A stretch of DNA of 4,895 bases, from the IMG/VR virus record IMGVR_UViG_2684622618_000028; one strand, 5' to 3'. Positions 205 through 1,340 of this stretch are shown in pieces. Source of the stretch: a virus. Taxonomy: Duplodnaviria > Heunggongvirae > Uroviricota > Caudoviricetes. The translations under genes were made by a program, and so were the position numbers. The notes beneath the pieces are model-generated. The model made no database searches and was not told the DNA's origin. It saw only the letters and a list, made by a program, of their open reading frames with translations. The stretch's first letter is position 1; each line of letters starts with the position of its first letter.

Positions 205-1179
205 TTACACATCATTAGTACCTTCCTTATTTTTTGACTGGGACAAATTTGGGACCGATGGGTTCAGGATCGAGTCTATTTGCCGTGCGTGTTCGGTAAG
301 GTGATTAGGTGCAAGGTGAGCATATCGACGAACCATTTCGATAGACTCCCAGCCTCCCATTTCCTGTAACACTGACAACGGGACTCCGGCTTGAACCAGC
401 CAACTTGCCCAGGTGTGTCTCAAGTCGTGAAATCTGAAATCATCAATACCAGCCCGTCTCAGCGCCGCTTTCCAGGCTGTGTTTGCGTCATACCGCATCT
501 TCCTTACTGTTGGCGCTTTCGTTCCGTCTGGTTTGGTACAGCTTTCCTTGTACACAAATACCCAACGGTGATGATTACCGATTTGTTTTTTCAATACGCG
601 ACATGCAGTATCATTCAGCGCAACGCCAATTGCGCGGTTTGATTTACTCTCTTCCGGGTTTATCCATGCCACCCGGCGCTGCATATCTATTTGTTGCCAT
701 TCAAGGTTGATGATGTTCGAGCGTCTTAAGCCTGTTGCCAGTGCAAATTCAACAACAGACTTTAATGGCTCCGGACATTCATCAATCAGCCTTTGTGCTT
801 CATGGGGCTCCAGCCAGCGGAGCCGTTTATTCTTTGGTTGAGGCACTTTAATAATTGGTGCCTTATCGAGCATTTTCCATTCACGCTCTGCGGCTCTTAG
901 CAGGGCCTTTATAAATGAAAGATGCGTAGCCTTCGTTGCAACGGACGCTGGTTTTGGCGTGTATTCTGGAACAGGTTTCCCTTTTTTTCTGCATGCTTCT
1001 GCCCTGAGTTTCCAGTTTTCCTCATGACGCCGGTTCGTCATTTTCTGCATTGCTGAATAAATTTTTGATTCAGTAATGTCTCTTAGTTGCATTCCTGCGA
1101 AATGTTGAAGCCAGAATCCGATCTGCTTTCCATTGAGCCTGTTTCTCTGCGCGACGTTCGCGGCGGCGTGTTTGTGCAT
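205..1179 (-). CDS. int: tyrosine site-specific integrase (P22/thrW family), 5'-truncated; N'-int fusion ORF
   Basis: 324-aa minus-strand ORF whose stop lies 14 bp from the tRNA 3' end. Tyrosine-recombinase catalytic motifs are visible near the C-terminus ([30 protein letters not shown]). The first 19 codons ([19 protein letters not shown]) are the +1 reading frame of the lambda N 5' end, so the native N-terminal (arm-binding) region of the integrase is absent. Confidence 0.85.
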
Positions 1180-1183
1180 CCAT
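1070..1183 (-). pseudogene. N: antitermination protein N remnant (first 20 codons, then out of frame into int sequence)
   Basis: Minus-strand ATG at 1183 preceded by AGGAGAA RBS; translation [20 protein letters not shown] equals the lambda N N-terminus as I recall it, then continues as unrelated [17 protein letters not shown] to a stop at 1070. Nucleotide identity with lambda N ends at about 1123. Confidence 0.85.
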
Positions 1184-1340
1184 CTGGATTCTCCTGTTAG
1201 TTAGCTTTGGTTGTGTGTGGGAGTCGTAGTCCTGAACGAAAACACCCCGCAATGGCACATTGGCTGCTAATCCGGATTCGCACTTCCGGCCAATGCTTCG
1301 TTTCGTATCACACACACCAAAGCCTTCTGCTTTGAATGCT

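What the first reader, a model, noticed from the sequence alone, without database searches (positions are those of the whole stretch)
1110..1185. Junction joining the lambda N 5' end to the interior of a P22-type integrase gene
Sequence from pL through the N RBS and the first 61 nt of N is lambda-like, then switches at about 1123 to integrase coding sequence in the +1 frame. Because N begins ATGGATG, the second ATG (1179) opens a 324-codon frame: 19 residues from the N alternative frame followed by the integrase core-binding and catalytic domains. The resulting ORF sits 4 nt behind the N RBS and directly under pL/nutL, so de-repression of pL (cI inactivation, SOS) would drive a truncated recombinase. 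By analogy with lambda Int domain structure the deleted part is the arm-binding domain, which would leave the element unable to excise normally. The whole early-left region (N 3' end through xis and the int 5' end) is missing.
Basis: partly seen in the sequence, partly recalled or inferred. Interest (0 to 1): 0.6.

Follow-up and report, generated by a model that had tools for sequence, protein, structure and literature searches.

The report
Known deletion scar in prophage CP-933H
The junction is real, but it is the already catalogued deletion scar of the decayed E. coli O157:H7 prophage CP-933H/Sp1, which lost about 5.7 kb between the start of gene N and the inside of its integrase gene and has been shown experimentally not to excise.

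Summary
On the minus strand, 61 nt of lambda N (1183..1123) abut integrase nt 246 onward, sharing one G at 1123. The second ATG of ATGGATG (1179) opens a 324-codon frame: 19 alternative-frame N codons plus integrase residues 83-387.

The window is 100% identical to E. coli O157:H7 EDL933, at the thrW end of cryptic prophage CP-933H (Sakai Sp1). The junction occurs in 215 of 5,426 complete E. coli genomes, so it is not a misassembly.

Shigella phage SfI is an intact relative with the same layout. It shows that 5,694 bp are missing: int codons 1-82, xis, the whole early-left region and the 3' part of N.

The 324-aa ORF was deposited in 2001 as 'putative integrase for prophage CP-933H'; NCBI's PGAP annotation pipeline now calls it a pseudogene. 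Asadulghani et al. 2009 scored Sp1 int defective and xis absent. They found no circularisation, but mitomycin C induced the residual early genes.

The interpretation needs two corrections. The deletion also cuts into the core-binding domain, not only the arm-binding domain. The first ATG, 7 nt after AGGAG, should dominate and give a 37-aa N' peptide; translation of the truncated integrase is unproven.

This is ordinary prophage decay and already known.

The parts
115..190 (+). thrW, tRNA-Thr (anticodon CGT), the host attachment gene
   Evidence: ARAGORN; Rfam tRNA, 71.8 bits
145..196 (.). attL core: the 3' part of thrW, repeated 10,586 bp downstream in EDL933 as attR
   Evidence: 52-nt direct repeat at L004 4694-4745 and 15280-15331, 96% identical. 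Window 145-1123 matches the SfI attP core plus int at 98.9%.
205..1122 (-). Integrase remnant: codons 83-387 plus stop of a P22/SfV/SfIV-type thrW integrase. It keeps the complete catalytic domain and a truncated core-binding domain.
   Evidence: PF00589 matched over 1-171 of 172 positions, E 2.4e-47. Only 4 nt differences in 918 from a full-length allele. PGAP annotates it as a pseudogene 'missing N-terminus'.
1123..1123 (-). Deletion junction: a single G shared by both parents
   Evidence: Base-by-base extension from both sides
1123..1183 (-). First 61 nt of lambda-type gene N (codons 1-20 plus 1 nt)
   Evidence: Identical to lambda J02459 N
205..1179 (-). 324-codon ORF from the second ATG of ATGGATG: 19 N alternative-frame codons plus Int 83-387. 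It equals GenBank AAG54569.1, 'putative integrase for prophage CP-933H'.
   Evidence: the ORF listing; exact-sequence look-up, seen on 655 contigs
1070..1183 (-). N-frame ORF of 37 aa: N residues 1-20 (most of the boxB-binding arginine-rich motif) plus 17 out-of-frame integrase codons, ending in TGA at 1072..1070
   Evidence: Translation. Residues 1-20 are identical to the N peptide in PDB 1QFQ, 5LM7 and 6GOV. The longer 81-aa GTG-start version is annotated 'antitermination protein N'.
1191..1195 (-). N Shine-Dalgarno AGGAG, 7 nt from the ATG at 1183 and 11 nt from the ATG at 1179
   Evidence: Read from the sequence; identical to lambda
1341..1371 (-). nutL: boxB hairpin at 1355..1341, identical to lambda; boxA at 1371..1364, with one C-to-T change from lambda
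   Evidence: Alignment to lambda; the hairpin is also found by the terminator scan and by RNA folding
1411..1473 (-). pL promoter (TTGACA at 1439..1434, GATACT at 1416..1411) with operators OL1 (1413-1429, one substitution), OL2 (1437-1453) and OL3 (1457-1473)
   Evidence: Promoter scan, 10 of 12 matches; alignment to annotated lambda operators
2072..2785 (-). cI repressor, 233/237 identical to lambda cI, with HTH and S24 peptidase domains; it controls pL
   Evidence: BLASTP; Pfam PF01381 and PF00717

Best explanation
The junction is a decay scar. An SfI-like lambdoid phage integrated at thrW in the O157:H7 lineage. It carried a P22/SfV-type int and xis, a lambda-type early-left arm, lambda N, pL and immunity-lambda cI. 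It later lost about 5.7 kb in one illegitimate-recombination deletion with only 1 nt of microhomology. That deletion joined codon 21 of N to codon 82 of int.

It removed the int start, the arm-binding domain, about one and a half helices of the core-binding domain, xis, the recombination, kil and cIII genes, and the functional part of N. The element (CP-933H in EDL933, Sp1 in Sakai) is therefore locked into the chromosome.

Its cI/pL switch still works, so SOS induction turns on transcription from pL. That transcript now runs through nutL, the N' stub and the int remnant. Ribosomes using the N ribosome-binding site should mostly start at the first ATG and make a 37-aa N' peptide.

The 324-codon frame from the second ATG is a fortuitous in-frame fusion. 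It is at best weakly translated, and there is no evidence that it is functional.

Shown here or in print: the sequence anatomy, the identity to CP-933H, the missing segment, no excision, and mitomycin C induction of residual early genes. Inferred: the deletion mechanism, start-codon preference, and the lack of function of Int'.
For: - Identity: the window is 100% identical to EDL933. The junction is present in 215 of 5,426 complete genomes.
- Breakpoints: exact positions with a 1-nt overlap.
- Intact relative: SfI has attP-int-xis-...-exo-bet-gam-kil-cIII-ral-N-rexBA-cI-cro-cII-O. Window 145-1123 and 1123-1209 match it at 98.9% and 97.7%, placed 5,694 bp apart.
- Family: full-length members are 387 aa with residues 1-82 conserved.
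- Structure: the AlphaFold model places the arm domain at 3-51 and core-binding helices at 59-69 and 77-90. Its best PDB match is full-length lambda Int, 1z1b.
- Annotation: PGAP calls int a pseudogene 'missing N-terminus'. The exact ORF is deposited as the CP-933H integrase, and the N stub as 'antitermination protein N'.
- Experiments in print: PMC2669165 scores Sp1 integration 'D' (defective) and excision '-'. It finds no circularisation, replication or packaging, and mitomycin C induces the residual early genes. The attP-detection primers map to window 354-376 and 635-656. PMC5931665 also scores Sp1 excision '-'.
- Switch intact: pL, the OL operators, nutL and cI are nearly identical to lambda.
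- Start-codon geometry: SD spacing is 7 nt to the first ATG and 11 nt to the second.
Against: - The int remnant has accumulated no frameshift or stop. It differs from a functional allele by only 4 nt in 918 (3 synonymous, 1 I-to-L) and keeps all catalytic motifs. This fits a recent deletion in a young clone, but does not exclude maintenance by selection.
- No intrinsic terminator is predicted on the minus strand between pL and the end of int', so transcription of int' after SOS is plausible.
- The mitomycin C induction of Sp1 genes is described in the literature as being of unknown significance.
- I could not inspect ribosome-profiling or proteomic data for this locus.
Confidence: 0.9

Rival explanations
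1. SOS-inducible truncated recombinase. After cI cleavage, pL transcripts are translated from the ATG at 1179 into a 324-aa Int' lacking the arm-binding domain. Int' still binds or cleaves thrW-type core sites. It might act as a dominant-negative against incoming SfV/SfIV/P22-type integrases, or it might nick attL/attR.
For: - The ORF is intact, with a complete catalytic domain and all catalytic motifs.
- attL and attR cores are intact.
- The pL/cI switch is intact and residual Sp1 early genes are mitomycin C-inducible.
- No predicted intrinsic terminator lies between pL and int'.
- Lambda Int fragments that lack the arm domain (residues 75-356) still bind core DNA, as in PDB 1z19 and 1p7d.
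Against: - The breakpoint removes core-binding helix 59-69 and part of helix 77-90, so the core-binding domain is probably misfolded. The lambda 75-356 fragment keeps that domain whole.
- The ATG at 1179 overlaps the better-placed N ATG at 1183 and competes with it.
- With N truncated there is no antitermination, and an untranslated int' message would be exposed to Rho (inference).
- The ORF being open is uninformative in so young a clone (4 differences in 918 nt).
- No excision product has ever been detected.
Confidence: 0.06
2. The functional product is the N' stub. The 37-aa peptide keeps N residues 1-20, most of the boxB-binding arginine-rich motif. It could occupy lambda-type boxB RNA without antiterminating and so interfere with superinfecting lambda-N phages.
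For: - Residues 1-20 are identical to the N peptide solved on boxB (1QFQ) and in antitermination complexes (5LM7, 6GOV).
- It uses the native SD and first ATG.
- nutL boxB is intact.
- Transcription is SOS-inducible.
Against: - The motif is normally taken as residues 1-22; two residues are replaced and a 17-aa unrelated tail is added.
- The peptide would only be made when cI is already inactivated.
- Immunity-lambda cI itself already excludes lambda-immunity phages.
- Short unstructured peptides are usually unstable.
- There is no experimental hint of such a role.
Confidence: 0.03
3. Assembly artefact, or a chimera of two tandem elements rather than an internal deletion of one prophage.
For: - thrW carries tandem elements in O157, with Sp1 followed by the P4-like Sp2.
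- The window contains a masked run of N elsewhere (4186-4235).
Against: - The junction is identical in 215 complete genomes, including long-read assemblies.
- A single phage (SfI) carries both parents in the required order and orientation, so one deletion suffices.
Confidence: 0.01

Closest known systems
Cryptic prophage CP-933H of E. coli O157:H7 EDL933 = Sp1 of strain Sakai (Perna 2001 and Hayashi 2001 from my own knowledge; Asadulghani et al. 2009, PMC2669165)
   Same: It is this element. Sequence identity is 100%. The int' ORF is the same (AAG54569.1) and so is the N stub. The published defect list matches: int defective, xis absent, replication defective, no late genes, no excision.
   Different: Nothing in the sequence differs. 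The papers I could read do not spell out the base-level anatomy: 61 nt of N, a 1-nt overlap, and the use of N's second ATG. Sakai-type genomes also carry IS629 at window 1597/1598 and a second IS copy downstream of the truncated O gene.
Shigella flexneri serotype-converting phage SfI (NC_027339), with SfIV and SfV
   Same: Same thrW attP core and int (98.9% at the DNA level to SfI; SfIV Int is 99.7% identical to the full-length allele at the protein level). SfI also shares the lambda-type N, pL, cI, cro, cII and O arrangement.
   Different: SfI is intact: it has int residues 1-82, xis, the 5.7-kb early-left region, full N and rexAB. The window has a truncated NYN-domain gene in the rexAB position.
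Lambda Int N-terminally truncated fragments (residues 75-356; PDB 1z19, 1p7d)
   Same: A heterobivalent tyrosine integrase lacking the arm-binding domain. Such fragments bind core sites but cannot carry out regulated integrative or excisive recombination (domain roles: PMC1807965; structures listed).
   Different: Those fragments keep a complete core-binding domain. Here the breakpoint lies inside that domain, and 19 unrelated residues are attached.
Lambda N antiterminator
   Same: Promoter, nutL, SD, start codon and residues 1-20 are lambda N.
   Different: Residues 21-107, which hold the NusA- and RNA-polymerase-binding regions (my own knowledge of N), are deleted, so antitermination is not possible.

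Membership tests
Functional heterobivalent tyrosine integrase (lambda Int / P22 Int type) | Catalytic domain with the R..K..HxxR..H/W..Y active-site residues | tested here: met
   PF00589 matched over positions 1-171 of 172, E 2.4e-47. The ATGLRRS, HDLRHT and RRYAH motifs are intact.
Functional heterobivalent tyrosine integrase (lambda Int / P22 Int type) | Complete core-binding helical domain | tested here: not met
   In the model of the full-length protein the helices are 59-69, 77-90, 100-108, 113-129 and 143-162. The remnant starts at residue 83, so helix 1 and the first 6 residues of helix 2 are missing. Model confidence in this part is moderate to good (pLDDT 76-90).
Functional heterobivalent tyrosine integrase (lambda Int / P22 Int type) | N-terminal arm-binding domain (three-stranded sheet plus helix) | tested here: not met
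   Residues 1-82 are absent. They are conserved across 38 full-length homologues. The model shows strands 3-6, 9-15 and 21-25 and helix 31-51. The best fold match is full-length lambda Int.
Functional heterobivalent tyrosine integrase (lambda Int / P22 Int type) | Own start codon, and a partner excisionase for excision | tested here: not met
   The native start is deleted; the only upstream in-frame ATG is N's second ATG. xis lies in the missing 5.7 kb.
Functional heterobivalent tyrosine integrase (lambda Int / P22 Int type) | Recombination activity on its att sites | not testable with these tools
   Published PCR for attP found no circularisation with or without mitomycin C (PMC2669165). Excision was also scored '-' in PMC5931665.
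Lambda N antitermination protein | Arginine-rich boxB-binding motif at the N-terminus | tested here: inconclusive
   Residues 1-20 are identical to the N peptide of PDB 1QFQ. Residues 21-22 of the usual 1-22 motif are replaced. Binding was not tested.
Lambda N antitermination protein | NusA- and RNA-polymerase-binding regions (residues ~34-107) | tested here: not met
   N sequence ends after 61 nt. The frame continues 17 codons in out-of-frame int sequence to a TGA.
Defective lambdoid prophage CP-933H / Sp1 | Location at thrW, bounded by duplicated thrW 3' ends, and sequence identity to the reference element | tested here: met
   tRNA-Thr at 115-190. attL and attR are 10,586 bp apart in EDL933. 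The window is 100% identical to EDL933.

The most novel reading that the evidence does not exclude
After SOS induction, the remnant's pL operon makes biologically active fragments. One candidate is an arm-less Int' translated from N's second ATG, which might poison or compete with integrases of incoming thrW-targeting phages (SfV/SfIV/P22 type). The other is a 37-aa N' peptide that sequesters lambda-type boxB. Either would make the scar a domesticated anti-phage or regulatory module, and would explain the published but unexplained mitomycin C induction of Sp1 genes.
Probability: 0.05. Interest if true: 0.45.

Novelty: already known. Interest (0 to 1): 0.12.

Why it matters
It matters little beyond correct annotation. 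The locus is a clean, base-resolved example of how a lambdoid prophage becomes grounded: one 5.7-kb deletion removes xis, the int 5' end and N, while the repressor switch stays SOS-responsive. For annotation, 205-1179 should be treated as a pseudogene fragment, as PGAP now does, and not as 'integrase'. Only if the truncated Int' or the N' stub turned out to be made and active would it bear on the broader question of what cryptic-prophage fragments do for their hosts.

Tried and rejected
- Misassembly: rejected. The junction is in 215 complete genomes.
- 'The family naturally starts here': rejected. Homologues are 387 aa with a conserved N-terminus.
- A 7-bp microhomology, suggested by overlapping BLAST hits at 1123-1129: rejected. 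Base-by-base comparison shows only 1 shared nt; the rest came from a gapped extension over AAAGCAG versus AAAGCCGG.
- O55:H7 CB9615 as the direct undeleted ancestor: rejected. Its thrW prophage is intact and has an identical cII protein, but its int is a different allele (about 76% DNA identity over the int 3' end) and its repressor is different.
- APEC O2-211, which shares the cI and NYN region: it sits at another chromosomal site, flanked by dsdA and csc genes and carrying torI rather than thrW, so it says nothing about the int side.
- Mapping the breakpoint onto lambda Int by profile alignment failed. hhalign aligned only the catalytic domain (probability 0.8%, E 0.066), and phmmer against PDB hit only catalytic domains. 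I therefore relied on the AlphaFold secondary structure plus the Foldseek match to full-length lambda Int.
- Selection test on int': uninformative, with only 4 differences.
- Rfam: only the tRNA was found.
- Searches for the locus tags Z0307 and ECs0271 in papers and supplements found no expression data for int' itself.

Full report
**What is in the window.** The 4,895-nt window is 100% identical to E. coli O157:H7 EDL933, in two blocks. Window 1-4185 matches L004 4550-8734, and window 4236-4895 matches L004 9001-9660. The 50-nt run of N stands for 266 nt of the genome. It covers the end of proA, then thrW (tRNA-Thr CGT, 115-190), then the left part of the cryptic prophage annotated CP-933H in EDL933 and Sp1 in Sakai.

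Reading the minus strand from right to left, the order is:
- cI at 2072-2785, 233/237 identical to lambda cI, with HTH and S24 peptidase domains;
- a truncated NYN-domain gene;
- operators OL3 to OL1 and pL, TTGACA-17-GATACT at 1439..1411;
- nutL, with boxB identical to lambda;
- the N Shine-Dalgarno AGGAG at 1195..1191;
- ATGGATG at 1183..1177.

**The junction.** From the N ATG at 1183, 61 nt are identical to lambda N. From 1123 downward the sequence is identical to nt 246 onward of a full-length thrW integrase gene, i.e. codon 82, third position. The two parents share only the G at 1123 (alignments). BLAST suggested a 7-nt overlap, but that is a gapped extension over AAAGCAG versus AAAGCCGG.

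The second ATG (1179) is in the integrase frame. It gives the 324-codon ORF 205..1179: 19 alternative-frame N codons plus Int residues 83-387. The first ATG gives a 37-aa product, [20 protein letters not shown] followed by 17 out-of-frame codons, stopping at 1072..1070.

**It is real and clonal.** A 60-nt probe centred on the junction matches at full length and 100% identity in 216 records of 215 out of 5,426 complete E. coli genomes. All sampled rows are O157:H7-type strains such as EDL933, Xuzhou21, 86-24, ATCC 35150 and TW14359. Other genomes match only the N half or only the int half. Misassembly is excluded.

**What was lost.** The integrase family is uniformly 387 aa, with a conserved N-terminus. 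The nearest phage integrases, compared with the full-length allele, are SfIV (99.7%), SfV (98.2%) and P22 (89.7%).

Shigella phage SfI carries both parents in one genome, in the right order and orientation: attP core, int, xis, about 15 early-left genes (exo, bet, gam, kil, cIII, ral and others), N, rexB, rexA, lambda-like cI, cro, cII, O. Window 145-1123 matches SfI at 98.9%, and window 1123-1209 at 97.7%. These two segments lie 5,694 bp apart in SfI. One internal deletion of an SfI-like prophage therefore explains the junction.

O55:H7 CB9615 has an intact but non-identical lambdoid prophage at thrW. Its N 5' end is the same and its cII protein is identical, but its int allele and repressor differ. 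This shows that such phages use this site in the wider lineage.

**Which domains remain.** An AlphaFold2 model of the full-length protein has mean pLDDT 72, and 74-90 over the first 160 residues. It shows:
- three strands (3-6, 9-15, 21-25) and a long helix (31-51);
- then helices 59-69, 77-90, 100-108, 113-129 and 143-162;
- then the catalytic domain from about residue 183.

Its best PDB match is full-length lambda Int (1z1b, E 4e-8, aligned over the whole length). The first unit corresponds to the arm-binding domain and the helical bundle to the core-binding domain. The breakpoint at residue 82/83 lies inside helix 77-90.

So the deletion removes the arm-binding domain plus helix 1 and part of helix 2 of the core-binding domain. 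The catalytic domain is complete (PF00589 over 1-171 of 172 positions, motifs intact). I could not confirm the mapping by sequence, because hhalign and phmmer aligned only the catalytic part.

**Expression.** pL, OL1-3, nutL and cI are essentially lambda. No intrinsic terminator is predicted on the minus strand between pL and position 205.

Asadulghani et al. 2009 reported that mitomycin C clearly induced many residual early genes of Sp1 without DNA amplification, 'biological significance unknown'. Uhlich et al. 2018 list 8 of 14 Sp1 genes as differentially expressed under high sulfamethoxazole-trimethoprim, in the same table column as nearly all genes of the induced Stx2 prophage. Transcription into the scar after SOS is thus plausible.

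Translation of Int' is another matter:
- The SD is 7 nt from the ATG at 1183 and 11 nt from the overlapping ATG at 1179, so the N' frame should win (inference from general initiation rules).
- I saw no SD before the internal Met codons (inspection of the sequence).
- With N destroyed there is no antitermination, so an untranslated int' message would be open to Rho (inference).

**Excision.** attL (145-196) and attR are intact, 10,586 bp apart in EDL933. However, xis is gone and int is truncated. Asadulghani et al. scored Sp1 integration 'defective' and excision 'absent'. They detected no circular form, replication or packaging with or without mitomycin C. Their attP-detection primers for Sp1 and for Sp1-2 lie at window 354-376 and 635-656, inside this int remnant. 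Uhlich et al. also scored Sp1 excision negative.

**Already annotated.** The exact 324-aa sequence is GenBank AAG54569.1, 'putative integrase for prophage CP-933H', and is seen on 655 contigs. The 81-aa GTG-start ORF over the N stub is 'antitermination protein N' (UniProt A0A0H3JFJ5; Sakai ECs0272 is listed as 'putative transcription antitermination protein'). PGAP now marks 205-1125 as a pseudogene 'missing N-terminus'. Zhang et al. 2007 found ECs0272-ECs0280 present in lineage I and I/II but absent from lineage II strains.

**Selection.** The remnant differs from a full-length allele (strain AC-3) by 4 nt in 918: three synonymous changes and one I183L. That is too few to distinguish recent decay from maintenance.

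**Verdict.** The feature is an ordinary, already described prophage-decay deletion. The only open point is whether the SOS-induced transcript yields any active fragment. I rate that unlikely: about 5% for the broad reading that some fragment is active. I place it low in interest unless it is shown.

Noticed in passing
window 1555-1944 (-), breakpoint at 1597: The gene in the rexAB position is a truncated NYN-domain gene. Relative to other immunity-lambda prophages (e.g. APEC O2-211) 576 bp are missing at 1597. In Sakai-type O157 genomes an IS629/IS1203 copy sits exactly at 1597/1598, while EDL933 and this window have no IS there. This suggests an IS629-associated adjacent deletion followed by clean IS loss in the EDL933 line. 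The IS-excision enhancer is known in O157 (PMC9943667).
   Followed up: partly
window 3923-3968 (+): A perfect 23-bp tandem duplication (ATCCCTCAAATTGGGGGATTGCT x2) adds a fifth iteron to the lambda-type origin inside gene O and shifts the O frame. The ORF ends at 4139 after 202 aa; PGAP marks it 'frameshifted'.
   Followed up: yes
window 4186-4235: The run of 50 N is not a 50-nt gap. In EDL933 it corresponds to 266 nt (L004 8735-9000), so coordinates to the right of it are offset by 216 nt relative to the genome.
   Followed up: yes
window ~4236-4545 (+), junction near 4285-4297: A second large deletion scar. About the first 21 codons of lambda P ([20 protein letters not shown]) are fused to the 3' end of an unrelated gene. 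That gene lies directly upstream of a tail-fibre / tail-fibre-assembly / pinE invertible module, so the rest of P, the nin region, Q, lysis and head-tail genes are all gone.
   Followed up: partly
window 1413-1429 and 1364-1371 (-): There are single-base differences from lambda in OL1 (TACCACTAGCGGTGATA versus TACCACTGGCGGTGATA) and in nutL boxA (TGCTCTTA versus CGCTCTTA). OL2, OL3, the -35 and -10 hexamers and boxB are identical.
   Followed up: no
L004 15280-16669 (EDL933, just beyond attR of CP-933H): The duplicated thrW 3' end (attR) is immediately followed by another tyrosine integrase and an 'ABC-three component system' gene set. This is the tandem element Sp2, so thrW carries two elements in series.
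   Followed up: no
L002 (O157:H7 strain AC-3) and L006 (O55:H7 CB9615), thrW locus: Not all O157:H7 or O55:H7 genomes carry the scar. AC-3 has a different thrW prophage with a full-length 387-codon int that is 99.6% identical to the remnant. CB9615 has an intact lambda-like prophage with a cII protein identical to that of CP-933H.
   Followed up: partly
window 205-1405 (-) relative to thrW 115-190 (+): With the early-left region deleted and no terminator predicted, pL transcripts that read through int' would run antisense across thrW and toward proA. I did not look for evidence of this.
   Followed up: no
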